From a virus (lineage: Duplodnaviria > Heunggongvirae > Uroviricota > Caudoviricetes), in IMG/VR virus record IMGVR_UViG_3300024333_000003: a DNA stretch of 64,000 nt. The stretch is one strand, 5' to 3'. A model generated the notes under the pieces. It was given only the letters and a program-made list of their open reading frames with translations. It was not told the origin of the DNA and did not search any database. Below are positions 1,631-53,700 of this stretch, piece after piece (the stretch's first letter is position 1; every line of letters starts with the position of its first letter). The position numbers were made by a program, and so were the translations under genes.

Positions 1631-3984
1631 ACAGCTACGGCCGGGTTTGTAGCTTTAAAAATATTTAATATCATGTTTTGTCGTTCTCGTATAAAAGGTC
1701 TAGGAGAATCCATGTCAACTTGCCCTACGAAGTAAGGTTTTCCTGCGGAGTCACATAGTGATCTAGCGGTTAGTTTATCTACTGCATTTGATAATCCAGA
1801 CATTAATTCTTTTAACGTAGCTAATCGTCGATATGTCAAATCATCTGTGAACTTTTTTAGGGTCGCCGTATCTTTTATAACATTGTATTTTTCTTGTAAT
1901 TTTGCGGCGCATTTACTTGTAGAAAGTGGATCTATATCTTCGCCCCTAGCGTTTAATTGTAAATTATTAACACAATAATCATAAACTGAACTATCTGAGC
2001 GTCCAGTCAAATACACGTATAACCTTCCACCAACTTCTTTAACATTAAATTCAGATAATGTCGGTGGCAATATGTCTTTATATGGATCAAGGAAATCGGC
2101 GTAACTTTCTGTCGGTAGAGATGTATCAACACAAGATACGTGTGATAAATTTATATTTTGTACTGCTTCTCCTTGCGCACTGATATTTATAATATTTGTA
2201 GTAATTACACCAGTGAGTGGACCAAAGTCTTTTAACAATAATAACGATTGTGCACCACACACTCGATATGGCGAAAAAGTAACACGCAAAGCAGCGGTTC
2301 TGCCTATACGACGCTTCTCTACGTAAATAGTTTCAGCAAGTTGCATTTTATAATTCATTAATGCTTCAGAACCATTACCCATATTCATGCGATCAAATAA
2401 TTTTTTATCTGTATCTATCTTTTCGAAATTTTTATCAGAAGAAATTGCTGCAGGAGATTCAACTTCGGTAGATAACGAATCTTTTACCGCATTCAATAGG
2501 AATGCTTGTTCTAAAGCGCTATCATCTTTTTCCACCAATGACACGACACCACGCATTGCCTCTTCATTGGTGTATTTTAATATATCAATAACATCTTTAT
2601 TTAATACGGCATTATCATTAGATATAGTTTTATTTTGTGACAAAGTTTTAATTTGCTCATTTTCAGTGCTCGCTAATCCAATAGTTTTCTGGTTTTTAAA
2701 AGATTTTATATATTTGTCAAATGTATCCACAACCCAACGTTCGGATTCTTCAGATTTCACGGCGCCTTCTCGCAACGCTTTTCTTGAAGACGCAGTTAAC
2801 TTTGAAAGTTTATTTATTACATCACTGACCAGTATTTTTGCTGGCACAATAATAGCCAACATAGCATTTATAATGATGTTGCCGCTTTCGTCTTTGGTTG
2901 GAATTGTATTGGAAGTATAAATCAATCTAGTTGGTTCATTTCTCCAAGAACGATTCATTTGTATTGTTTCGACGTCATCATCGAAAAATACATTATTGGA
3001 TATGGGCGCCAACAGATTACATTCTGGTGCAACAATAACTTTAGACAAAGTTAATTCAGCAATGTCGCTTAAAGCATCGATTGTTAGAACCGGCGCCGCA
3101 AATTCCTGAAAAGTATATTTAAACGGCTCTAAAATTTTTCGGATAGCTGATGAAACAGGCATTGATCCTGAACTTGCGATACCACGTATACGTTCTTTTA
3201 GATATGCTAGCACGGCAGTACTCTTTGCAAGATTTTCCATAGTGCCAGACCCGATATAATTTATCATTGAATCAAATAATAAACTTTGCATCAAGCCATT
3301 TAAAAACGGGCCATACTTAAACAAAAAGTGATTTATAACTAGTGCAATTCTTGCACGCAATTTTGTACCGCGGTGAAATTTAAAATCCGGCCCCTCCGGC
3401 GGATTATTTTTCCAATATGCTTTTAAACCTGCCATTAATTTATTACGACTATTTGTCGAGCCTAAAACTTGTTCATAATCTTTTATAGTTTTGTCGTCTT
3501 TGGTTGTATCCATAAAGTTCACAAGACTAAGTAATAGTGAAGGAAACTTACTATAATATATCCCCTTTCCATCTGCCCCAGTATTAGTAAAATAATTTAT
3601 ACCGAGCATAACGGATTCAGCTGCCGTTGGGATAGTAGCATCTATCGGTACTATCGGATTTGTATCCCAATTACCTGTAAATCCAGTAAATGTTAACTGC
3701 ACTTCGGATGAGGTCGCTGTACGATTCAGCCCGTTATCAGTGTATTCACCAAAAAATATAACCACTTCTTCATATACAGGTATTCCATCTTTATAACTTT
3801 TAATTTCTTCCAAGGTTATAACACAAATAGTCTTCGGTAAAATATTAAAGATATTTTTTATAGGAACCACATTTATGATAGCGGTTGGTGGTGTTCCGAT
3901 TTGTTCGATTATATGTATATTTGAAAAATCAATTTCTACATTTTCAAGATATACATGACATTTTATTTTTGATGCTGATAGCAT
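1612..3984 (-). CDS. large virion structural protein (790 aa; baseplate/tail component candidate)
   Basis: 790-aa ORF immediately downstream of the tape measure gene on the minus strand, the usual place for distal tail or baseplate proteins. Confidence 0.5.
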   Translation of the reverse strand: MLSASKIKCHVYLENVEIDFSNIHIIEQIGTPPTAIINVVPIKNIFNILPKTICVITLEEIKSYKDGIPVYEEVVIFFGEYTDNGLNRTATSSEVQLTFTGFTGNWDTNPIVPIDATIPTAAESVMLGINYFTNTGADGKGIYYSKFPSLLLSLVNFMDTTKDDKTIKDYEQVLGSTNSRNKLMAGLKAYWKNNPPEGPDFKFHRGTKLRARIALVINHFLFKYGPFLNGLMQSLLFDSMINYIGSGTMENLAKSTAVLAYLKERIRGIASSGSMPVSSAIRKILEPFKYTFQEFAAPVLTIDALSDIAELTLSKVIVAPECNLLAPISNNVFFDDDVETIQMNRSWRNEPTRLIYTSNTIPTKDESGNIIINAMLAIIVPAKILVSDVINKLSKLTASSRKALREGAVKSEESERWVVDTFDKYIKSFKNQKTIGLASTENEQIKTLSQNKTISNDNAVLNKDVIDILKYTNEEAMRGVVSLVEKDDSALEQAFLLNAVKDSLSTEVESPAAISSDKNFEKIDTDKKLFDRMNMGNGSEALMNYKMQLAETIYVEKRRIGRTAALRVTFSPYRVCGAQSLLLLKDFGPLTGVITTNIINISAQGEAVQNINLSHVSCVDTSLPTESYADFLDPYKDILPPTLSEFNVKEVGGRLYVYLTGRSDSSVYDYCVNNLQLNARGEDIDPLSTSKCAAKLQEKYNVIKDTATLKKFTDDLTYRRLATLKELMSGLSNAVDKLTARSLCDSAGKPYFVGQVDMDSPRPFIRERQNMILNIFKATNPAVAVWKGLE

Positions 3985-11780: not shown

Positions 11781-12848
11781 ATGGATAACAACTTAATCTT
11801 TGCTATTGAAAAACTAGGGGCCACGATCTACTTATTTGGTGAATGTGTTTGGGCAACAGCATTAAAAATAAAAGTGCAGTATTATAAGTTAGCTATAATT
11901 GGAGTAACCCGCGAACAGGTAATTCCATTGTTAGATAACTATACATTGCACAGAACAAAACCAACACTGCAGATAAGTGACGGTGACACAACATATGAAT
12001 TGTATTTTTTGAATAGTATAGATAGTGTACCATTTGATCCTATATCGATAAACAATGCTATTCTCAGTCTGGATGGCAAGGTATTTCGCGCCGATGATTT
12101 AAAGAATAAACTCATTCGTGCCAATACCTCCACATTTCTCGATTACCCCGAAGAGTTATTACGGATATGTCGCATTGCTGCGCAAACCTCTTTTGCCGTA
12201 GATGTCCCAACGTGGGTAACAATGTACGAACATTCACGATTGATCAAGAATGTAGTAAAGAGCAACCCAGCATATATTGGAAAACAATTGCAACAAATAA
12301 TTATGTCAAAAAATCCGGGGCATGGTTTTCGTTTGATGTTAGAGACCAACGTACTACAATATATTTTTCCAGAGTTAGCACGTTGTAACAATATTCGTCA
12401 AACACGTCGGGGCGAAGGCATCAATGTATTTGAACACATATTGTTGGCTATAAATGCGGCAGCACTTGAAGAAGAAATCAGATGGACTATGTTATTTCAT
12501 GATATGGCAAAACCAACTACTATGGATATTACTTCCGATGGTAAAATGCATTTTTTCAAACACGAATTTGTAGGCGCCGAGCTCGCTGTAACATACATGA
12601 CAAAATATAAATTACCGCCGTCTCTAATACAAACTGTAAAGATATTAATAGAGAATCATATGTTTGACGCGGACCCGAAGTTAACCGTAAAGGGCGTGCG
12701 TCGTCTAATTAAAAGAGTCGGCAAAGAAAACATATATCAACTTATAAAAGTGCGAGAAGCGGATAGACGTGGTACCATGGTTCCACCGTCAAATGATAAG
12801 ATAGAATTGTTAAAAACCAAAATCGAAAAAGAATTATCAAATGTTTAA
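11781..12848 (+). CDS. CCA-adding-enzyme-like protein with degenerate nucleotidyltransferase head and HD domain
   Basis: FLDYPEELLRICRIAAQTSF resembles the EDPLR(I/M)LRA(I/A)RF motif. HD motif MLFHDMAKP. The GGxVRD...DxD head motif is replaced by GECVWATAL. Confidence 0.5.
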   Translation: MDNNLIFAIEKLGATIYLFGECVWATALKIKVQYYKLAIIGVTREQVIPLLDNYTLHRTKPTLQISDGDTTYELYFLNSIDSVPFDPISINNAILSLDGKVFRADDLKNKLIRANTSTFLDYPEELLRICRIAAQTSFAVDVPTWVTMYEHSRLIKNVVKSNPAYIGKQLQQIIMSKNPGHGFRLMLETNVLQYIFPELARCNNIRQTRRGEGINVFEHILLAINAAALEEEIRWTMLFHDMAKPTTMDITSDGKMHFFKHEFVGAELAVTYMTKYKLPPSLIQTVKILIENHMFDADPKLTVKGVRRLIKRVGKENIYQLIKVREADRRGTMVPPSNDKIELLKTKIEKELSNV

Positions 12849-25318: not shown

Positions 25319-25985
25319 ATGAGTAACATTTTATTGGAATTACAAGCTGGCGAGGGTGGAGCGGATGCAAAACTCCTCGTCGAGGATCAATTAAGTATTT
25401 ATTTAAAAGTCGCGTATAAACACGGACTTTGAGGCAATTCCAATATATGTTAGTGATGGGTTTGCTTCAGTTCAGGTTATCGGACAAAGAGCAAAGGAAT
25501 TATTTGAAAACGAGGGTGGTGCGCACCAATGGCACAGAGTTCCTCCTACAGAAAACCGAGGACGAACACATACCTCTGTTGTAACAGTTGCAGTGTTGGA
25601 TCTTATAGAACTTCCCGAGGTCAGTATAAATTTTAATGACGTTGAAGTTACAACCACTAAAGGAAGCGGTCCTGGAGGACAGAATCGTAATAAAGTTGAA
25701 ACAGTTGTTGTATTAAAACATAAATCAGGGTTAACTGTTCGTTGCGGTTCCGAAAGATCCCAGTACCAAAACAAACAACTTGCTTTTGAAATATTATATT
25801 CTAAGTTACAACGTATCGCTAAATATAATCATCAAAAACAAGCGGCCCAAAATAAACGATTGCAGATGGGGTCGGGACATCGAGCAGAAAAAATTCGTAC
25901 TTATATGGTAAAACATAATTTATGGATTGACCATAGAACAAACGAGCGACGCGATCTGAAAGCGTGGATAAAGGGTAAATGGTAA
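25319..25985 (+). CDS. class I peptide chain release factor-like protein (RF/PrfH-like, lacks domain 1); needs programmed +1 frameshift at CUU UGA G (25427-25433)
   Basis: Frame 0 (25319-25432) gives MSNILLELQAGEGGADAKLLVEDQLSIYLKVAYKHGL* (RF domain-2 start). The +1 frame continues ...GGAHQWHRVPPTENRGRTHTS...SGPGGQNRNKVETVV... with GGQ, through to 25985. Confidence 0.7.
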
Positions 25986-27801: not shown

Positions 27802-27876
27802 CGGAATATGGGCCAATTGGTAGGCCACCAGTTTCGGGAACTGGACATCGTGTGGGTTCAAGCCCCACTATTCCGA
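27802..27876 (+). tRNA. tRNA-Pro (CGG)
   Basis: Anticodon arm CCAGU-UUCGGGA-ACUGG, T-loop UUCAAGC. Confidence 0.7.
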
Positions 27877-28294
27877 CAAATGCCAAAACAATACAAGATA
27901 TTGACAAGCCGAGGTATACATTTATCGTTTAGAAAAGGCATACTTGCGGGAAATAGGAAATTAAAAATTTACGGAACATTAGATTGTTATAGCGGCAAAC
28001 GTATGAAAAAAAAGAATCGAGTATTTTTTCTTACAGAACTAGATGCATTACAATGTAGTTATCGCCCCTGTAAAATTTGTATGTATAAATGAATTATTAT
28101 AAACAAGTAAAAATACAATATGATGATGGTGCATTTGAAATATGTTGGATACCTGAAGAATTTGCACACAAGCATCGCCGAATTATAGTAGATGATAAAT
28201 ATGCTAGAGTATTAATAATCTATATGGACATTCGTTTGACTGAAGATCTTATTGAAATAAATCAAAAATTTCCGTTACGGAAAGCAACCGATAT

Positions 28295-28903
28295 ATGAAA
28301 CAATATCCAGAAATTCCTAAAGATGTGCCATCTTTTAATGCACACGTGTTCGATAAAATAGATGGTAGTAACTTACGTTTTGAATACAGCAAAAAACGTG
28401 GTTGGTTTAAATTCGGTACGCGCACAAGATTATTTGACCAATCAGATGACGTATTTGGATCAGCAGTTCCTTTATTTCACGAAACGTTGTTATTCCCGCT
28501 TACCCAAATTATGATTGATAACCGATTTGAACATGCGGTAGTGTTTGCAGAATTTGCTGGGAAAAGAAGTTTTGCTGGACAACATGAAAAAGATGATGTG
28601 AAGACACTGACGGTGTTTGATGTGGCCTTAGATAAAAAAGGATTCGTATCTCCTAAGATGTTCATAAAATTATTTGACGGTAAAGTACTGATACCAAAAT
28701 ATCTTGGATATTATCGCTGGAATAAAGAATTTACCACTAAGATCTATTATAATGAAATAGAAGGAATCACTTTTGAAGGAGTCGTCGGCAAAGATGGGGA
28801 GGGGACGCACTACAATATGGCAAAAGCTAAGACATTGCAGTGGTTAAATAAAGTACATGCTTTATATTCAGATAATCTAGCAGATAAGATAATAAATAGT
28901 TAA
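28295..28903 (+). CDS. RNA-ligase-like nucleotidyltransferase (KxDGxN motif I)
   Basis: DKIDGSN (motif I), EGVVGK (motif IV), KAK (motif V). Confidence 0.55.
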   Translation: MKQYPEIPKDVPSFNAHVFDKIDGSNLRFEYSKKRGWFKFGTRTRLFDQSDDVFGSAVPLFHETLLFPLTQIMIDNRFEHAVVFAEFAGKRSFAGQHEKDDVKTLTVFDVALDKKGFVSPKMFIKLFDGKVLIPKYLGYYRWNKEFTTKIYYNEIEGITFEGVVGKDGEGTHYNMAKAKTLQWLNKVHALYSDNLADKIINS

Positions 28904-29463
28904 TGGAACAACTAATCTGCGGTAAAAACCATAAGAAGATCGGGGTAACTCCTTCGATCGTACTAATTAATCCTAAATATCCAAGAAACGTTGGCGCAAT
29001 AATACGTGCTGCATCTTGTTTTGGTATAGCCCAGGTTTGGTACACCGGCAATCGTGTATCAATGACACCAACAAAAGATTATCGTTTACCAAGAGAAGAA
29101 CGGATGAAGGGTTATAAAGAAGTTACACTCACACAATTTGATTATCCGTTTGATATGTTTGAAAAAGCAATTCCTATTGCAATTGAAGTGCGAGAAAACT
29201 CTGAAAACTTATTAGACTTTGAACATCCATATAATGCAGTGTATGTTTTTGGTCCAGAAGATGGTGGTATTGAACGAGTACATATGCAACACTGCCATCG
29301 AATTGTCACTATACCCACGAAACATTGCACAAACTTGGCAGCGGCTGTTTATCTTACTTTATATGATAGATATGCCAAACGAGTACGTGCAGGAAAAGAT
29401 CAAATATTCAATATAGGAAAAAATGAACAACGAGGTTATGAAGAAGGGGCTGAATTTGGATGA
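28903..29463 (+). CDS. SpoU/TrmH-family RNA 2'-O-methyltransferase
   Basis: NVGAIIRAASCFG and YVFGPEDGGI SPOUT motifs. Confidence 0.7.
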   Translation: MEQLICGKNHKKIGVTPSIVLINPKYPRNVGAIIRAASCFGIAQVWYTGNRVSMTPTKDYRLPREERMKGYKEVTLTQFDYPFDMFEKAIPIAIEVRENSENLLDFEHPYNAVYVFGPEDGGIERVHMQHCHRIVTIPTKHCTNLAAAVYLTLYDRYAKRVRAGKDQIFNIGKNEQRGYEEGAEFG

Positions 29464-29945
29464 TACCAAAAGAAATTGAATATAAATTTTTGTTCTTTGA
29501 TGAGAATGTTGTGCTTCCACAGCTGGCTCAAGCTAGTAAATCAATAAAATTAATGCAGGGTTATACAATAGATGGGATTAGGTTTACTCAACGAGTACAT
29601 GAAGATAATACAAAAGATTATAAAATAAATTATAAATTAGGAATGGGTGTAGTTCGGGACGAAGCACAATGTCAAATAGATGAAAATGTGTTTATTGCAA
29701 TTTGGCCCTTAACAATTGGTCGACGTGTTTACAAAACACGTTATCACTTTCCACTGGAATCTGGTCTTATATTAGAATTAGATGTATATCAACATTCGAG
29801 GAAATGGCCATTGATCACTGGAGAAATAGAGTTTGCTACGGAAGAGGAAGCAGATAATTACTCAGACACTGAATTGGGGCGCTTCGGCAGTTTTTTATAT
29901 GTAACTGGCGACTCTGAGTATCTGAATATAAACTTAGCCTGTTAA
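29460..29945 (+). CDS. CYTH-domain (triphosphate tunnel) protein
   Basis: N-terminal EIEYKF (EIERKF-type) signature. Confidence 0.45.
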   Translation: MIPKEIEYKFLFFDENVVLPQLAQASKSIKLMQGYTIDGIRFTQRVHEDNTKDYKINYKLGMGVVRDEAQCQIDENVFIAIWPLTIGRRVYKTRYHFPLESGLILELDVYQHSRKWPLITGEIEFATEEEADNYSDTELGRFGSFLYVTGDSEYLNINLAC

Positions 29946-30546: not shown

Positions 30547-31158
30547 ATGACAATACATATAATTGGTGATATACATGGATTATACACAGAAATATATTTG
30601 CCTATGATCAAGAAGATTGATGGACCTTCAATTCAATTAGGCGATATGGCCCATGGATTCCCAAATACATTTTTACCTGAGTTGCCGTCTCAACATAAAT
30701 TTATCCGCGGTAATCATGATAATCCAGAACTATGTAAAACACATCCTAATTATCTTGGAGAATTTGGATATATCGAAGAATGGGATATATTCTATCTAGG
30801 GGGTGGTTGGTCGACAGATTGGGACAGTAGAATTCCTGGTGTATCTTGGTGGTATGATGAGGAACTGTCAATGCGACAATGTTATGAAGCCTTAAAATTA
30901 TACGAGGTGTCAAAACCACGAATAGTGCTTTCACATGATTGTCCGGAAATAGCAAAGATAAGTATGCTGATATATTTATACGGAAAACATGCGTATAATC
31001 AACCTTCCAGAACAAATCAATTATTGCAAGCCATGTTTGAACTTCATAATCCATCTTATTGGTGTTTCGGTCATTTCCATCATACACGAAAATTTATAAT
31101 TCACAAAACTGCCTTTCAGTGTTTAGGAAAGGCACAATACACAACAATAGAGGTTTAA
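30547..31158 (+). CDS. calcineurin-like metallophosphoesterase
   Basis: GDIHG, GD...GNHD motifs. Confidence 0.65.
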   Translation: MTIHIIGDIHGLYTEIYLPMIKKIDGPSIQLGDMAHGFPNTFLPELPSQHKFIRGNHDNPELCKTHPNYLGEFGYIEEWDIFYLGGGWSTDWDSRIPGVSWWYDEELSMRQCYEALKLYEVSKPRIVLSHDCPEIAKISMLIYLYGKHAYNQPSRTNQLLQAMFELHNPSYWCFGHFHHTRKFIIHKTAFQCLGKAQYTTIEV

Positions 31159-31160
31159 CA

Positions 31161-31877
31161 ATGCACGAACTAGTAAAAAAGGCACGAAGCTTTGCAGAGA
31201 AACGACATGCAGGACATAAATATGGTACATTGCCAGTGGATATTATAGTACATCTTGATAACGTTTATCATGTTTTAATGGAATTTGGCGAAACCGACCC
31301 ATCGATGTTAGCGGCAGGATTCTTACATGATATATTAGAAGACACAAAAACTTCGCAAGAGGAACTGCAAGAAGAATTTGGTATGATAACTACTGCATTG
31401 GTTTTAGCGGTTACTGATGGAGAAGGTAAGAATCGTAAGGAACGCAAAGAAGCAATGTACAATAAAACGGCGGGTCATTTGCGATTCACACGTTTAAAAT
31501 TAGCTGACCGTATAGCAAACATGCGGTATTCCAAGGCTGAAAAGTCTCCGCAGCTGACAATGTATATGAAGGAGTATCCAGAATTTAAAGCTCGCTTATT
31601 CTTTGCGAACGATGGTAACGAAAAAATGTGGGAAACATTAGACGCTTTAATGAAAAGTGTGATTCCACGGACATTCAAATTGAGTCGTGAAAAAGATGTT
31701 AGCGGTGTTTCTGGAAAAGGTATAGTAGGAGAAGGAGTTATATTTACAAACGGTAAATGCGTAGTAACATGGTATGGAAAAATAGCATCAGTCACTGTTT
31801 ATAACACATTCGAGGATTGTGAGCAAATACATGGACACGAAGGAGCAACAAAATTTGTATTCGATAACAAGTTTTAA
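31161..31877 (+). CDS. Rel/SpoT-type HD hydrolase (small alarmone hydrolase-like)
   Basis: RHAGHKYGTLP...HLDNV...AAGFLHDILEDT matches the (p)ppGpp-hydrolase HD domain. Confidence 0.6.
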   Translation: MHELVKKARSFAEKRHAGHKYGTLPVDIIVHLDNVYHVLMEFGETDPSMLAAGFLHDILEDTKTSQEELQEEFGMITTALVLAVTDGEGKNRKERKEAMYNKTAGHLRFTRLKLADRIANMRYSKAEKSPQLTMYMKEYPEFKARLFFANDGNEKMWETLDALMKSVIPRTFKLSREKDVSGVSGKGIVGEGVIFTNGKCVVTWYGKIASVTVYNTFEDCEQIHGHEGATKFVFDNKF

Positions 31878-32307
31878 GGACGAGTGGGAATTCTTATCAA
31901 ATTTCTATCCAGCCCCCATCACATATGATGGCGCTGAATATCCTACGGTTGAACATGCTTTTCAGGCGGCCAAAACATTGAATCCTGCGCAGCGCGAAGA
32001 AATTCGAGTTGCACCGACTCCGGGTAAAGCAAAACAGTTAGGACGAATAGTTGATCGTCGTCCTGATTGGGAACTTATAAAACAAACTGTTATGGCCCAG
32101 TTGTTGGCGGCCAAGTTCACTAATTACCCCGAATTACGAAAAAAGTTAATAGCGACGGGTAATCTTTTTCTTGAAGAAGGTAATACTTGGCATGATAATT
32201 ACTGGGGAGCATGTACGTGTGATTACTGCAAAACTCAATACAAGTATAATATTCTGGGTACGTTATTAATGACAACTAGAGTATTTTTGCAATTGGATTT
32301 GGCATGA
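31819..32307 (+). CDS. NADAR (YbiA-like) domain protein
   Basis: FLSNFYPAPI...YPTVEHAFQAAK hallmark. Confidence 0.7.
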   Translation: MSKYMDTKEQQNLYSITSFKDEWEFLSNFYPAPITYDGAEYPTVEHAFQAAKTLNPAQREEIRVAPTPGKAKQLGRIVDRRPDWELIKQTVMAQLLAAKFTNYPELRKKLIATGNLFLEEGNTWHDNYWGACTCDYCKTQYKYNILGTLLMTTRVFLQLDLA

Positions 32308-32329: not shown

Positions 32330-32403
32330 CGGCATCTAGCTCAACTGGTTAGAGCATTGGTCTGATAAGCCAAAGGTTCTGGGTTCAACCCCCAGGGTGC
32401 CGA
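32330..32403 (+). tRNA. tRNA-Ile (GAU)
   Basis: Anticodon arm UUGGU-CUGAUAA-GCCAA, T-loop UUCAACC. Confidence 0.75.
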
Positions 32404-32601
32404 CGATGAAAGCAAAAATCACATGGAGTATGGACGTTTATAAAGATCTCGACAAATTTGTAGACAGGTCCGCAAAAAATATTACGGACGAAATAGACAA
32501 AGCCTTTGTTAACATAATTACACGAGAATATTACAAAACAAATCCATTAGTATTTAAATTAAGTTACAGAACAACCTCTTTACAAGAATTCTTGAAAAGC
32601 A

Positions 32602-36637: not shown

Positions 36638-38035
36638 ATGAACTACGGGTTATACACAGATATGTATCAACTTGTTATGGCACAAGGATATTTCCAGATG
36701 AGCCGCCATAATGACCGAGCCACGTATGATTATTTTTATCGACGTAACCCATACGGCGGCGGTTATGCATTATTTGCCGGATTAAGTGAGTTGTTAGATA
36801 TCTTAAAGAATTGGAAATTTACCGAAGAAGATACAACGTATTTATTTCATCAAGGAATTTTTCACGCAGGCTTTTTGAGTTATTTACGTGACTTTCAATT
36901 CAAAGGCGATATCTATTCTGTGCGTGAGGGCGAAGTTGTTTTTCCAAATGAACCTATACTGCGAATTGAAGGTGGTTGGCTAGAGTGTCAATTATTAGAA
37001 ACTCTGTTGCTCAACATTATCAACTTCAGTACATTGATCGCAACTAAAGCAGCACGTATAAAACAAGTTGTAAACGAACGACCTATAATTGATATGGGAT
37101 TACGACGTGCACAGGGGTTGGGAGGTATTTTGGCGAGTAAAGCCGCTATTATTGGTGGTGCAACTTCAACTTCTAATGTTTATGCCGCAAAGAAATACGA
37201 TCTCTTAGCGGTAGGTACAATGGCTCATGCCTGGATACTTGGTTTTGAAAACGAGTTAACTGCATTTCGTGCGTTTGCTAAAGAATATCCGCACAACACA
37301 GTGTTGCTAGTTGATACTTATGATACATTAAAAAGTGGTGTGCCGAATGCAATAATCGTAGCTAAAGAACTTGAAGCCAACGGATGTAAATTACATGGTA
37401 TCCGATTAGATAGCGGCGACTTTGCGTACCTAAGCAAAAAAGCAAGAAATCTTCTTGATGAGGCCAATTTGTCTTATGTAAAAATAGTTGCATCTAATCA
37501 ATTAGATGAATATGTAATTCGTAGTCTAGAAGAACAGGACGCTCCTATTGATATTTATGGTGTAGGCACAAATTTAATTATCGGTGCTGGCGCTGGAGCT
37601 CATGATGGTGTATATAAACTATCATCGATTCAAGGACAGCCGAAAATGAAATTTTCAGATAATCCTGAAAAAGCTACATTACCCGGACCAAAAGATCTGT
37701 ATCGTTATTATAATAACGACGGCACTTTTTATGGCGACGGTATTACTTGCGCAGGAATGCCTCCACCGAAGAAGTTGTATGATCCTGTTTATCCAGATAG
37801 ATTATCAGATGTTGGAGATCTAAAAAACGAAGCGCTTTTAATAAAGTGCGTGGAAAATGGAAAGGTTGTAATAACTAATCCTATCGTACGTACATCAAGA
37901 CTTTATGCGGAAAGTCGTCTGCAGAGCTTAGGAAAAGAATTCACTAGATTTGAAAACCCACATATCTATAAAGTAGGTGTAAGTGATATATTACTTAAGC
38001 ATAAAACAGATATGATTGCCGCACTTAGAAAATAA
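36638..38035 (+). CDS. nicotinate/nicotinamide phosphoribosyltransferase (PncB/NadV family)
   Basis: 465 aa; N-terminus TDMYQLVMAQGYF and overall length match the NAPRTase/NAMPT family. Confidence 0.6.
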   Translation: MNYGLYTDMYQLVMAQGYFQMSRHNDRATYDYFYRRNPYGGGYALFAGLSELLDILKNWKFTEEDTTYLFHQGIFHAGFLSYLRDFQFKGDIYSVREGEVVFPNEPILRIEGGWLECQLLETLLLNIINFSTLIATKAARIKQVVNERPIIDMGLRRAQGLGGILASKAAIIGGATSTSNVYAAKKYDLLAVGTMAHAWILGFENELTAFRAFAKEYPHNTVLLVDTYDTLKSGVPNAIIVAKELEANGCKLHGIRLDSGDFAYLSKKARNLLDEANLSYVKIVASNQLDEYVIRSLEEQDAPIDIYGVGTNLIIGAGAGAHDGVYKLSSIQGQPKMKFSDNPEKATLPGPKDLYRYYNNDGTFYGDGITCAGMPPPKKLYDPVYPDRLSDVGDLKNEALLIKCVENGKVVITNPIVRTSRLYAESRLQSLGKEFTRFENPHIYKVGVSDILLKHKTDMIAALRK

Positions 38036-52949: not shown

Positions 52950-53700
52950 TGCCCATTAACCTTATTGGTTAGCTATGAACAATCATAGTACTGTTCGCCA
53001 GAACTGCATTCCAGAATGATTTAGGTTAATTGCGAAAGCCCCTGGAACAGGGGAGTCCTACGCATACTTACCCGTCGTAGGTGAGCCTGTCTAATTATGG
53101 GTTAGACCCAGGGTCGATCCAAAAGGTAAGCTCGATCGAAATTAACTATTGTCTGCGTGGCCGAGAACGAAATAAGCACTAGTCTCTAAAACTAGTTACA
53201 CGGGGTCGTTCCCCGTCGCAGACACTTATTCCTCTGTGGTGAAATGAAAAGAGATGTATATTTGTTACGTATTAATATACATTACTAAGTCACTAGATTG
53301 AATTAGTAGGTGACAGCATCGAGTTACCAGTATAGACTGTTCTTTATGGTCAAGTTCAGAGCAAGTGTATTGGAAGAATAACTAGGATGAAGCGATTAAA
53401 CCAATTGTCATGCGACGAACGTTTAGTTGCGTAGCGGCTGAATATTCAATTGAAAATTAGAATGGGATCTTTACTACTCCCTGTCGAACGCTTACAAACG
53501 GAACTGACTGTCAGTAGACTAAAAGTAATGCTGCAGGTTTGAGTCCTGCCAGAGGGATAAATTTTTATCCGGACGGCGTATTATTCTCTCGACGCCTAAT
53601 AAATATGGGGAGATTATCAGTCCTGTCATAAACAATTCCGCTCAATGAGCACCGGAGCCATTTGATAGGACTTTTGCATTATATATGGCTCCGCCACGAT
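52950..53700 (+). ncRNA. group I intron-like ribozyme core in an ORF-free region
   Basis: P4-P6-like UUAAUUGCGAAAGCCCCUGGAACAGGGGAGUCCUACGCAUAC (~53024-53065). R-like CAGUAGACUAAAAG (~53515-53528) and S-like AUUAUCAGUCC (~53609-53619) can form P7. Confidence 0.45.

What the first reader, a model, noticed from the sequence alone, without database searches (positions are those of the whole stretch)
31161..32307. Adjacent small alarmone hydrolase-like HD protein and NADAR domain protein
The Rel/SpoT-type HD domain (RHAGHKY…FLHDILEDT) could degrade (p)ppGpp/(p)ppApp-type signals. NADAR domains remove ADP-ribose from guanine bases modified by DarT-type toxins. Both fit anti-defence or host-takeover roles and overlap by about 60 nt.
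Basis: established knowledge. Interest (0 to 1): 0.5.

Follow-up and report, generated by a model that had tools for sequence, protein, structure and literature searches.

The report
Phage alarmone-hydrolase/Acb5 fusion beside NADAR
A large uncultivated phage carries, inside its tRNA gene array, one gene that fuses an alarmone-hydrolase-type enzyme to a cyclic-dinucleotide-cleaving anti-CBASS enzyme (Acb5), followed by an overlapping ADP-ribose-removing NADAR gene; each enzyme type is a known phage counter-defence tool, but this fusion has not been described.

Summary
Gene 31161-31877 (+) has a RelA/SpoT-type HD_4 hydrolase domain with every metal-binding and catalytic residue present. Gene 31831-32307 (+) is a NADAR of the YbiA type, also with its catalytic residues.

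Residues 167-238 are an Acb5 domain (anti-CBASS 5), 43% identical to the experimentally validated Acb5A, with its three essential residues conserved (R176, W204, H226).

The fusion is a real gene. Seven homologues (57-69% identity) from independent metagenomes keep it, always followed by NADAR with the same 47-nt overlap. It is also rare. It forms one 50%-identity cluster among 1.84 billion representatives. It was not found in INPHARED, IMG/VR, the GTDB species representatives, BFVD or the Acb5 paper's homologue table.

No toxin partner lies nearby, so these are orphan, antitoxin-like enzymes. The most likely function is a three-activity counter-defence cassette:
- SAH domain against RelA/SpoT-type toxins and alarmones
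- Acb5 domain against CBASS signals

All activities are inferred from sequence, not tested. Verdict: known kinds of enzyme in a new, undescribed fusion; moderate interest.

The parts
31161..31877 (+). Fusion gene for a 238-aa protein: N-terminal RelA/SpoT-type HD_4 hydrolase (SAH-like) plus C-terminal Acb5 domain. Stop codon TAA.
   Evidence: ORF. Pfam HD_4 and phrog_990 plus phrog_7499. An identical protein, P0001, is precomputed as PF13328 + PF26761 (Acb5). AF2 model has pLDDT 93.9 and pTM 0.85.
31161..31658 (+). HD_4 / small-alarmone-hydrolase-like domain (aa 1-166). Metal and catalytic residues H16, H31, H56-D57, E60-D61, D116, N120.
   Evidence: These residues are invariant in 53 homologues. 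Alignments to B. subtilis Rel, Drosophila Mesh1 and P. aeruginosa SAH. Top Foldseek PDB hits are 6yvc (PaSAH, TM-score normalised to target length 0.77), 7qoc (RelH) and 3nqw/3nr1 (Mesh1).
31659..31874 (+). Acb5 (anti-CBASS 5) domain, aa 167-238. R176, W204 and H226 correspond to R10, W38 and H61 of Acb5A.
   Evidence: BLASTP to validated Acb5A: 43% identity over 68 aa, E 7e-19. Invariant columns in 19 homologues. phrog_7499, E 1e-23. The INPHARED host spectrum matches the one reported for Acb5. BFVD structural hits are to stand-alone Streptomyces and Haloarcula virus proteins.
31831..32307 (+). NADAR gene, YbiA family, 158 aa from the conserved ATG (a GTG at 31819 is an alternative start). 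Catalytic E41, K48, E116, D122, W125 in ATG numbering. Stop codon TGA.
   Evidence: Pfam NADAR, E 1.6e-24. phrog_1017. PDB matches: YbiA 2b3w at 2e-20 and 8bau at 1.7e-9, with alignments. TIGR02464 above its cut-off. 44.5% identity to the T5-like Bas33 NADAR.
31831..31877 (+). 47-nt dual-coding overlap. The last strand of Acb5 (HGHEGATKFVFDNKF) and the first strand of NADAR (MDTKEQQNLYSITSF) are read in two frames. The NADAR ATG lies inside the invariant His-Gly-His codons of Acb5.
   Evidence: The same 47-nt overlap occurs in L001, L002 and L004. DNA alignment. Synonymous divergence is lower in the overlap.
30547..31158 (+). Calcineurin-like metallophosphoesterase. It is a conserved neighbour of the Acb5 gene in all four related phages and ends 2 nt before the fusion gene.
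   Evidence: Pfam Metallophos, E 1e-8, and phrog_1649. Synteny in L001-L004.
32330..32404 (+). tRNA-Ile(GAT), downstream boundary of the variable cassette. The upstream boundary is tRNA-Pro(CGG) at 27802-27877.
   Evidence: ARAGORN on the window and on L001-L003 shows the same flanking tRNAs in all relatives.

Best explanation
This is an orphan counter-defence cassette carried by a large (about 215 kb), tRNA-rich, uncultivated phage. It has three parts.

1. SAH-like HD_4 domain. It is proposed to be a Mn2+-dependent 3'-pyrophosphohydrolase. It would remove the products of RelA/SpoT-type immune toxins: (pp)pApp, and the 3'-pyrophosphate that CapRel/FaRel2-type toxSAS enzymes place on the tRNA CCA end. 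It may also remove host (p)ppGpp.

2. Acb5 domain, fused directly to the last helix of the HD domain. Like Acb5A, it would assemble into oligomers and cleave 3'3'-cGAMP-type CBASS signals into 2',3'-cyclic mononucleotides, so that the CBASS effector is never switched on.

3. YbiA-type NADAR, read from an overlapping frame. It would hydrolyse ADP-ribose from guanine (possibly cytosine) bases of DNA or RNA that host ADP-ribosyltransferase toxins of the DarT1 or pierisin/YarT kind have modified.

The genes lie close together on the + strand behind a metallophosphoesterase gene and are probably co-transcribed.

Shown here: domain identities, intact active-site residues, conservation of the fusion, and its rarity. 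Inferred: all substrates, oligomerisation, co-transcription, and the anti-defence role in vivo.
For: - HD_4 scores above the Pfam cut-off, with H16, H31, HD56-57, ED60-61, D116 and N120 invariant.
- The structure model has pLDDT 93.9. Its best PDB matches are P. aeruginosa SAH, RelH and Mesh1.
- The C-terminal domain is 43% identical to validated Acb5A (E 7e-19), with R10, W38 and H61 conserved as R176, W204 and H226. It is precomputed as Pfam PF26761 Acb5.
- The NADAR scores above its cut-off, has E/K/E catalytic residues of the YbiA type, and is 44.5% identical to the T5-like Bas33 NADAR. The Bas32/Bas33 NADAR neutralises DarT1.
- Phage SAHs from PVP-SE1 and SSU5 neutralise all tested toxSAS toxins. 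SAHs remove tRNA 3'-pyrophosphate.
- Fusion of two immune-evasion domains in one phage protein has precedent in Tad2-Acb4.
- No toxin partner is nearby by Pfam or PADLOC, so the enzymes are orphans.
- The fusion followed by NADAR is conserved in three diverged relatives. A fourth relative has stand-alone Acb5 and neither the HD domain nor NADAR, in the same tRNA-flanked slot. This is the variable, accessory behaviour typical of anti-defence genes.
Against: - No biochemical or genetic test exists for any of the three activities. The host and its defence repertoire are unknown.
- The HD domain's subfamily within the RSH nomenclature was not determined, and it is only 22-26% identical to the solved small alarmone hydrolases (PaSAH, RelH, Mesh1).
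- SAH-fold enzymes are promiscuous. Mesh1 also acts on NADPH, and a Mesh1-PAPS complex has been solved.
- E. coli YbiA and T4 NADAR failed to protect against DarT1 in vivo in one study.
- NCBIfam would name this NADAR a riboflavin-intermediate N-glycosidase.
- Whether Acb5 can still form its tetrameric active site with a 166-aa domain on its N-terminus was not tested.
- SAH-NADAR adjacency occurs in only 1 of 80 other phage SAH loci, and SAH-Acb5 proximity in 0 of 80. The three activities therefore need not be functionally coupled.
Confidence: 0.6

Rival explanations
1. Translation and tRNA protection module. The cassette serves mainly to keep the phage's own large tRNA pool usable. The SAH domain strips 3'-pyrophosphate from tRNA CCA ends, and the NADAR removes ADP-ribose from tRNA or rRNA guanines. 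They would act together with the neighbouring RNA ligase, SpoU 2'-O-methyltransferase, CCA-adding enzyme and RF-1-domain hydrolase. On this view Acb5 is a passenger.
For: - The genes lie inside an array of 37 tRNA genes, in a slot between tRNA-Pro and tRNA-Ile that is syntenic in relatives.
- Neighbours include an RNA ligase, a SpoU methylase and an RF-1 domain protein, and a tRNA nucleotidyltransferase at 11781-12848.
- SAHs restore aminoacylation of pyrophosphorylated tRNA.
- NADARs reverse guanosine ADP-ribosylation of RNA.
- 16 of 80 phage SAH loci have tRNA genes within 5 kb, against 1 of 80 bacterial loci.
Against: - tRNA arrays of large phages are general hot spots for small accessory genes. 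The Streptomyces phage EGole Acb5 also sits among tRNAs.
- There is no proper control for the 16/80 figure.
- This rival overlaps heavily with the best explanation, since tRNA pyrophosphorylation is itself a defence output.
- Acb5's validated substrates are cyclic dinucleotides, not RNA.
Confidence: 0.2
2. Coupled two-step nucleotide destruction. The HD domain is not an alarmone hydrolase here. Instead it works on the same pathway as Acb5, either processing its 2',3'-cyclic or 3'-phosphorylated products or degrading another 3'-(pyro)phosphorylated immune signal. The adjacent metallophosphoesterase might contribute.
For: - There is essentially no linker. The helix ends at residue 167 and the first Acb5 strand starts at 170. 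The single-chain model has pTM 0.85, which suggests a fixed domain arrangement.
- Junction residues L160, D161, L163, M164, S166, P169 and T171 are invariant among the fusions.
- SAH-fold enzymes accept other 2'/3'-phosphorylated adenosine nucleotides, as in the Mesh1 NADPH and PAPS complexes.
- A metallophosphoesterase is next to Acb5 in all four relatives.
Against: - The HD domain keeps the full residue set of bona fide (p)ppGpp/(p)ppApp hydrolases.
- Stand-alone Acb5 alone is sufficient to defeat CBASS.
- Relative L003 has Acb5 without the HD domain.
- None of 80 other phage SAH loci has Acb5 nearby.
Confidence: 0.1
3. Metabolic housekeeping or host takeover rather than counter-defence. The HD domain lowers host (p)ppGpp to keep transcription and translation running. 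The NADAR is a YbiA-type N-glycosidase that clears reactive riboflavin-pathway intermediates.
For: - TIGR02464 (riboflavin-intermediate N-glycosidase domain) scores above its curated cut-off, 86.1 against 73.7.
- The closest solved structure is E. coli YbiA.
- Other authors have proposed that phage SAHs modulate the stringent response.
- Other metabolic genes are nearby: NAPRTase, dCMP deaminase and ribonucleotide reductase.
Against: - Fusion to a validated anti-CBASS enzyme argues for an immune-evasion context.
- No riboflavin genes were seen among the roughly 30 window ORFs scanned against family libraries.
- YbiA-family enzymes also de-ADP-ribosylate guanine in vitro, and one is an antitoxin for an ART toxin.
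- The cassette is variable between close relatives.
Confidence: 0.1

Closest known systems
Phage-encoded small alarmone hydrolases (PaSpo of Salmonella phage SSU5, PbcSpo of phage PVP-SE1) and bacterial/metazoan SAHs (P. aeruginosa SAH, C. glutamicum RelH, Mesh1)
   Same: HD_4 fold, the same metal-binding and ED catalytic residues, no synthetase domain, and orphan status in a phage genome. Structural matches reach a TM-score normalised to target length of up to 0.78.
   Different: It is fused at its C-terminus to an Acb5 domain. It is only 22-26% identical to the solved small alarmone hydrolases. Its RSH subfamily was not determined. In INPHARED, no Salmonella phage appeared among the ten most frequent organism names at E <= 1e-5, so it is probably a different subfamily from the tested phage SAHs.
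Acb5 (anti-CBASS 5), Pfam PF26761; Acb5A/Acb5B of bioRxiv 10.1101/2025.07.12.664507
   Same: 43% identity to Acb5A. The DVSGVSG...EGV...W...HGH motif set is conserved, including the three residues whose mutation abolishes anti-CBASS activity. The predicted small beta-rich fold is the same as in the Streptomyces and Haloarcula virus homologues.
   Different: Described members are stand-alone proteins, mostly 65-100 aa, and mostly from Actinobacteria-infecting phages. Here the domain is the C-terminus of a 238-aa two-enzyme protein in a low-GC (37%) jumbo phage. Tetramer formation in this context is untested.
Phage NADARs: AdfN (T4 gp30.3), NADAR-Bas32 (T5-like), NADAR-Bas60; E. coli YbiA; myxobacterial YbiA antitoxin of YarT
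   Same: NADAR fold and catalytic Glu/Lys. It is an orphan antitoxin-like enzyme in a phage. It is 44.5% identical to the T5-like Bas33 NADAR and has E 2e-20 to YbiA.
   Different: It has the YbiA-family Glu at the position that is Asp in DarT1-linked NADARs and His in T4-type NADARs. It lacks the N-terminal DNA-binding extension of DarG1-type NADARs. It matches Pfam Phage_30_3 only weakly, below the cut-off.
Fused phage immune-evasion proteins (Tad2-Acb4, Sequestin-Acb4/Tad2)
   Same: One polypeptide combines two modules aimed at different nucleotide-based immune pathways.
   Different: Those are sponge-sponge fusions. This one joins two hydrolytic enzymes, and one of them (SAH) has not yet been shown to act as a counter-defence factor during a real phage infection.

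Membership tests
RelA/SpoT-homologue hydrolase / small alarmone hydrolase (SAH) | HD_4 (PF13328) domain above the gathering score | tested here: met
   46.2 bits against a cut-off of 27.2, E 5e-12.
RelA/SpoT-homologue hydrolase / small alarmone hydrolase (SAH) | Metal-binding His...His-Asp...Asp and the catalytic Glu-Asp dyad (RelSeq H53, H77-D78, E81-D82, D144, N148 by established knowledge) | tested here: met
   H31, H56-D57, E60-D61, D116 and N120 are present and invariant in 53 homologues. They align to the LHDvvEDT and KLADrlxN motifs of Rel, Mesh1 and PaSAH.
RelA/SpoT-homologue hydrolase / small alarmone hydrolase (SAH) | Fold of solved SAHs | tested here: met
   Top Foldseek PDB hits are 6yvc, 7qoc, 3nqw and 3nr1, probability 1.0, TM-score normalised to target length 0.7-0.78.
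RelA/SpoT-homologue hydrolase / small alarmone hydrolase (SAH) | Single-domain protein (hydrolase only) | tested here: not met
   There is no synthetase domain, but a 72-aa Acb5 domain is fused to the C-terminus. It is therefore an SAH domain, not a stand-alone SAH.
RelA/SpoT-homologue hydrolase / small alarmone hydrolase (SAH) | Hydrolysis of (p)ppGpp, (pp)pApp or tRNA 3'-pyrophosphate; neutralisation of toxSAS | not testable with these tools
   Requires an enzyme assay or a toxicity-rescue assay.
Acb5 (anti-CBASS 5, PF26761) | Sequence membership: similarity to validated Acb5A/B and the family profile | tested here: met
   BLASTP to Acb5A gives 43% identity, E 7e-19, and to Acb5B E 1e-9. phrog_7499, E 1e-23. 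PF26761 is precomputed for the identical protein P0001. The local Pfam copy returned no PF26761 match.
Acb5 (anti-CBASS 5, PF26761) | Pocket residues R10, W38 and H61, which are essential for anti-CBASS activity | tested here: met
   R176, W204 and H226 are invariant in 19 and in 26 homologues. The R-to-W spacing is identical, at 28 residues.
Acb5 (anti-CBASS 5, PF26761) | Homotetramer with two symmetric inter-protomer active sites | not testable with these tools
   Only monomer prediction is available. The monomer model is confident, with pLDDT 82-96 per ten-residue block over the domain.
Acb5 (anti-CBASS 5, PF26761) | Cleavage of 3'3'-cGAMP to 2',3'-cNMPs; rescue from CBASS | not testable with these tools
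   Requires biochemistry or a plaque assay.
NADAR superfamily, YbiA family | NADAR (PF08719) domain above the cut-off, and conserved Glu/Lys (Pn E43, K50) plus the family-defining Glu (Pn E125) | tested here: met
   87.4 bits against a cut-off of 35.1. E41, K48 and E116 (ATG numbering) align to E43, K50 and E125. D122 and W125 align to D130 and W133. TIGR02464 scores above its cut-off.
DarG1-type (BC4488, DarT1-associated) NADAR antitoxin | Asp at the E. coli C7 D171 position, N-terminal DNA-binding extension, and an adjacent DarT1 gene | tested here: not met
   Glu occupies the aligned position rather than Asp. The fold starts at about residue 8, so there is no extension. No DarT was found by Pfam or PADLOC in the neighbouring genes.
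T4-type AdfN (gp30.3) NADAR | Phage_30_3 profile match, and His at the E125-equivalent position | tested here: not met
   PF08010 scores 18.3 bits against a cut-off of 36. The residue at that position is Glu.
Toxin-antitoxin module (toxSAS-SAH or ART-NADAR) | A cognate toxin gene in the same operon | tested here: not met
   The neighbours are a metallophosphoesterase, HSP20, a CYTH protein, a SpoU methylase, an RNA ligase and tRNAs. There are no RelA_SpoT synthetase, DarT or ART hits.

The most novel reading that the evidence does not exclude
The fusion is not just two independent tools stapled together. In this reading the RelA/SpoT-type hydrolase domain has been recruited into cyclic-nucleotide immune evasion. 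It would either finish off the 2',3'-cyclic or 3'-phosphorylated products of Acb5, or destroy a still-unknown 3'-(pyro)phosphorylated immune signal. That would make a single-polypeptide, multi-step signal-destruction enzyme. Together with the overlapping NADAR and the tRNA-repair-like neighbours, it would mark a dedicated translation and immune-signal protection island inside phage tRNA arrays.
Probability: 0.12. Interest if true: 0.75.

Novelty: new variant of a known kind. Interest (0 to 1): 0.5.

Why it matters
Phage small alarmone hydrolases have been shown to neutralise RelA/SpoT-type toxins only when over-expressed in E. coli. In the papers retrieved here, a role as a real counter-defence factor during phage infection is still a hypothesis.

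Here one is welded to a validated anti-CBASS enzyme and followed by a NADAR of a type shown to defeat DarTG1. This is the same "guilt by fusion" evidence that was used to discover the Sequestin sponges, so it makes the hypothesis directly testable with one small gene.

It would also be the first enzyme-enzyme fusion among phage inhibitors of nucleotide immune signalling in the papers and databases searched here. It extends Acb5 from Actinobacteria-infecting phages to low-GC jumbo phages. It gives a natural construct for asking whether Acb5 tolerates, or benefits from, an N-terminal partner domain.

Tried and rejected
- **DNA relatives.** Megablast of the region against INPHARED found nothing, so there is no close cultured relative.
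- **IMG/VR, single protein.** A scan with the single fusion protein found no relatives.
- **IMG/VR and GTDB, fusion profile.** Scans with the profile returned 160 loci. All matches fall within query residues 1-200 and none spans the Acb5 domain; local tblastn then found no Acb5 in these loci.
- **Solved structures, Acb5 domain.** A PDB sequence search with the Acb5 domain alone found nothing even at E <= 10.
- **Solved structures, metallophosphoesterase.** A PDB sequence search found nothing.
- **Other SAH fusions.** A Pfam scan of ten longer SAH homologues (up to 919 aa) recognised no extra domain except one weak TacA1 match.
- **Transcription signals.** The promoter/terminator scan found no more sites than in shuffled sequence.
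- **TTG 31855 as the NADAR start.** It has a good AAGGAG Shine-Dalgarno sequence, but I rejected it because the codon is TTA in relative L001.
- **Assembly or frameshift artefact.** I rejected this because seven diverged homologues from independent samples keep one uninterrupted ORF.
- **Toxin-antitoxin module.** I rejected this because no toxin gene is present.
- **General SAH-NADAR operon.** I rejected a general rule (1 of 80 loci), although independent adjacencies exist in BcepSaruman and L024.
- **Phage and host identification.** A search with the CCA-adding enzyme gave only weak hits to gut-virome fragments.
Full report
**Setting**

The window has 36.9% G+C. It carries 37 tRNA genes, all on the + strand, between 23.4 and 61 kb. 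Interspersed with them are short + strand genes typical of a large phage:
- ribonucleotide reductase, a tRNA nucleotidyltransferase and a DNA ligase
- an RF-1-domain protein, an RNA ligase and a nicotinate phosphoribosyltransferase (NAPRTase)
- a SpoU methyltransferase, HSP20 and a metallophosphoesterase

Megablast of the finding's region found no cultured relative in INPHARED. A protein identical to the HD protein occurs on 16 metagenomic contigs; the cluster table gives 215,168 bp for the longest contig carrying it. The source is therefore an uncultivated phage of about 215 kb.

**Checking the observation**

ORF 31161-31877 (+, 238 aa) begins MHELVKKARSFAEKRHAGHKY and contains FLHDILEDT. It matches Pfam HD_4 over residues 8-133 at 46.2 bits, against a cut-off of 27.2.

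ORF 31819-32307 (+) matches Pfam NADAR at 87.4 bits, against a cut-off of 35.1.

The two genes overlap. The overlap is 59 nt if the GTG at 31819 is the start. In three related contigs the called NADAR gene overlaps the fusion gene by the same 47 nt, which corresponds to a start at the ATG at 31831. That ATG is invariant because it lies inside the His-Gly-His codons of the upstream gene. The TTG at 31855 has a strong AAGGAG motif 9 nt upstream but is TTA in one relative.

Both proteins use the overlap for conserved structural elements:
- The upstream protein's family match runs to residue 234 of 238.
- Similarity to YbiA starts at residue 12 of the GTG-start ORF. [quoted passage not shown]

Outside the overlap, nonsynonymous divergence is 0.13-0.49 while synonymous divergence is about 1-2 or too saturated to compute. 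Synonymous divergence drops inside the overlap, as expected for dual coding, although that segment is only 15 codons.

PHROGs splits the 238-aa protein in two: phrog_990 (metal-dependent phosphohydrolase) over residues 1-156, and phrog_7499 (unknown function) over residues 167-234, E 1e-23. The precomputed Pfam annotation of the identical database protein calls the second part PF26761, "Acb5".

Acb5 (anti-CBASS 5) was described in bioRxiv 10.1101/2025.07.12.664507:
- It is a family of proteins predicted to form homotetramers that cleave 3'3'-cGAMP into 2',3'-cAMP and 2',3'-cGMP.
- It abolishes CBASS defence.
- R10, W38 and H61 are essential for that activity.

I took the Acb5A sequence from the paper's supplementary tables. 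The window's C-terminal domain is 43% identical to it over 68 residues, E 7e-19. R176, W204 and H226 align to R10, W38 and H61, and they are invariant in all homologues I aligned.

A tblastn search with the domain in INPHARED finds 161 records: Streptomyces 128, Bacillus 19, Haloarcula 10, Mycobacterium 4. The paper reports the same four host genera for Acb5. The rows inspected there lie in short ORFs annotated as hypothetical proteins.

**The HD domain**

In an alignment of 53 homologues, H16, H31, H56, D57, E60, D61, R92, K113, D116, R117, A119 and N120 are invariant. They align with the LHDvvEDT and KLADrlxN motifs of B. subtilis Rel, Drosophila Mesh1 and P. aeruginosa SAH. By established knowledge of RelSeq and Mesh1, these are the Mn2+ ligands and the Glu-Asp catalytic dyad.

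An AlphaFold2 model built from 72 sequences has mean pLDDT 93.9 and pTM 0.85. It shows an all-helical domain (residues 1-167) running without a linker into a small beta-rich domain (residues 170-234).

Foldseek against the PDB ranks these hits first:
- P. aeruginosa SAH (6yvc, TM-score normalised to target length 0.77)
- C. glutamicum RelH
- Mesh1

Against BFVD, the hits are either HD-only phage proteins or Acb5-only Streptomyces/Haloarcula virus proteins. None covers both domains.

**The NADAR**

The closest solved structure by sequence is E. coli YbiA (2b3w, E 2e-20). Next is P. nicotianae NADAR (8bau).

Using the residue roles given in PMC11543638, the window protein has Glu and Lys at the positions of Pn E43 and K50. 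It has Glu at the position of Pn E125. That position defines the family: Glu in the YbiA family, Asp in DarT1-linked NADARs, His in T4-type phage NADARs. D130 and W133 are also conserved.

It lacks the N-terminal extension of DarG1-type enzymes. It matches the T4 gp30.3 profile only below the cut-off. NCBIfam TIGR02464, the "riboflavin biosynthesis intermediates N-glycosidase" domain, scores above its curated cut-off.

The protein is 44.5% identical over 139 residues to the NADAR of the T5-like phage HildyBeyeler, which is BASEL phage Bas33. Bas32 and Bas33 encode an identical NADAR that neutralises DarT1 and restores phage growth on DarTG1.

Other published findings on the family:
- YbiA-family enzymes de-ADP-ribosylate guanine in vitro, and one is the antitoxin of the ART toxin YarT. 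However, E. coli YbiA itself did not protect against DarT1 in vivo.
- NADARs also act on ADP-ribosylated guanosine in RNA and on cytidine.

**Is the fusion real, and how common is it?**

Seven full-length homologues (57-69% identity), found in JGI, ENA and Logan assemblies, keep a single uninterrupted ORF with both domains. This excludes an assembly or frameshift artefact.

An HMM of the seven was searched against 1.84 billion cluster representatives. Exactly one representative covers both domains (468 bits). The other 149 of the best 150 hits match only the HD part, at 163 bits or less.

Other searches agree:
- Profile-guided scans of IMG/VR and of one genome per GTDB species returned 160 loci. 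All matches fall within query residues 1-200 and none spans the Acb5 domain.
- None of those loci has an Acb5 gene within 5 kb.
- The HD motifs KLADRIAN, LADRI and LHD.LEDT do not occur in the paper's table of Acb5 homologues.

The paper says it detected 1480 Acb5 homologues. It does not mention any HD or alarmone link.

**Context and evolution**

In the window and in three relatives, the cassette occupies the same slot between tRNA-Pro(CGG) and tRNA-Ile(GAT). The contents of the slot vary:

| Contig | Gene order in the slot |
|---|---|
| Window / L004 | RNA ligase, SpoU, CYTH-like, tRNA-Arg, HSP20, metallophosphoesterase, HD::Acb5, NADAR |
| L001 | SpoU, CYTH-like, HD::Acb5, NADAR, metallophosphoesterase |
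| L002 | CYTH-like, tRNA-Arg, HD::Acb5, NADAR, metallophosphoesterase |
| L003 | HSP20, CYTH-like, a 126-aa protein, stand-alone Acb5 (74% identical), metallophosphoesterase |

In L003, local tblastn at E 1e-3 detects no HD domain and no NADAR in the 12-kb locus. So the HD domain and NADAR co-vary across four lineages, while Acb5 and the metallophosphoesterase are constant.

No RelA/SpoT synthetase, DarT or other ART toxin is detectable in the neighbours by Pfam or PADLOC. The enzymes are therefore orphans, not antitoxins of a resident toxin-antitoxin pair.

**Is SAH-NADAR adjacency general?**

Among 80 other phage SAH loci, only L024 has a NADAR within 5 kb. There it lies directly downstream.

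In INPHARED, Burkholderia phage BcepSaruman has a NADAR homologue (gp437) overlapping the start of the SAH gene (gp436) by 4 nt, in the opposite order.

That makes three independent adjacencies with different gene orders. This suggests co-location of counter-defence genes, but it is not an obligate pairing. I could not compute a proper null.

**Mechanism**

The best-supported reading is a three-activity counter-defence cassette. The evidence from the literature is:
- Stand-alone phage SAHs (PVP-SE1, SSU5) neutralise all five tested toxSAS toxins. The authors proposed that phages use them to bypass alarmone-based abortive infection.
- SAHs also remove the 3'-pyrophosphate that CapRel/FaRel2-type toxins place on tRNA CCA ends.
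- Acb5 destroys CBASS signals.
- Phage NADARs remove DarT1-installed ADP-ribose.
- Fusing two immune-evasion modules in one phage protein has precedent in Tad2-Acb4, and that pattern was itself used as a discovery principle.

All substrate assignments here are inferences from homology and conserved residues.

The rival readings are set out in the rival-explanation section of this report:
- tRNA and translation protection as the primary role
- a biochemically coupled HD-Acb5 pathway
- metabolic housekeeping

**Verdict**

The real point of interest is the undescribed SAH::Acb5 fusion. It is a new variant built from known kinds, rare, and directly testable. Interest is moderate.

Noticed in passing
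window 53151-53225: A suppressor-type tRNA with anticodon CTA (ARAGORN labels it tRNA-Pyl). TAG is the stop codon of only 5 of 81 long + strand ORFs, against TAA 45 and TGA 31. This could mean amber suppression or partial TAG recoding, or simply low TAG usage.
   Followed up: partly
window 29460-29945: A 161-aa protein (phrog_6660, 'unknown function') that starts with an EIEYKF motif. It matches the CYTH / triphosphate-tunnel inorganic triphosphatase NE1496 of Nitrosomonas europaea (2fbl/3typ, E 4.5e-13). It is conserved in the cassette of all four related phages.
   Followed up: partly
window 30547-31158; L001 7141-7752; L002 2236-2838; L003 6227-6871: A calcineurin-like metallophosphoesterase is next to, or one gene away from, Acb5 in all four relatives, including the one that lacks the HD domain and NADAR. 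Acb5 releases 2',3'-cyclic nucleotides, so a functional link is conceivable but untested.
   Followed up: partly
window 11781-12848, 25593-25985, 28295-28903, 28903-29463: A set of tRNA- and translation-related accessory genes lies around the tRNA array: a tRNA nucleotidyltransferase, an RF-1-domain (ArfB-like) protein, a short RNA ligase and a SpoU/TrmJ-like 2'-O-methyltransferase.
   Followed up: partly
window 36638-38035: A nicotinate phosphoribosyltransferase, with all three NAPRTase Pfam domains. A phage NAD+ salvage enzyme could offset NAD+-depleting defence systems.
   Followed up: no
L166 (Burkholderia phage BcepSaruman NC_049850.1) 2405-3534; L024 4995-6312: Two independent cases of NADAR directly next to an SAH in other large phages. 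In BcepSaruman, gp437 (NADAR) precedes gp436 (SAH) with a 4-nt overlap. In IMG/VR contig 3300029288_000077, the SAH is followed by a 236-aa NADAR that carries a C-terminal extension.
   Followed up: partly
L005 (Streptomyces phage EGole) 3998-4282: The stand-alone Acb5 homologue of this unrelated Streptomyces phage also sits inside a tRNA array (tRNA-Ile, Ser, Ser upstream; Asp, Asp downstream), near a Ro-like RNA-binding protein.
   Followed up: no
L006-L085 versus L086-L165: 16 of 80 phage SAH loci have at least one tRNA gene within about 5 kb, some inside dense arrays of 11-24 tRNAs. Only 1 of 80 bacterial SAH loci does. There is no matched control for phage tRNA density.
   Followed up: partly
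window 31650-31652 (Met164 of the fusion): Met164 is invariant in all seven fusions. It lies 12 residues before R176, close to where stand-alone Acb5 proteins start. An internal start could yield free Acb5, but no clear Shine-Dalgarno motif precedes it.
   Followed up: partly
proteins P0141, P0145, P0157, P0279, P0226, P0245: Close SAH homologues of 262-919 aa carry long extensions that Pfam does not recognise. Other unexplored SAH fusions therefore exist.
   Followed up: partly
L003 5595-5975: In the relative with stand-alone Acb5, the position of the HD domain is taken by an unrelated 126-aa protein with no detectable similarity to HD_4.
   Followed up: partly
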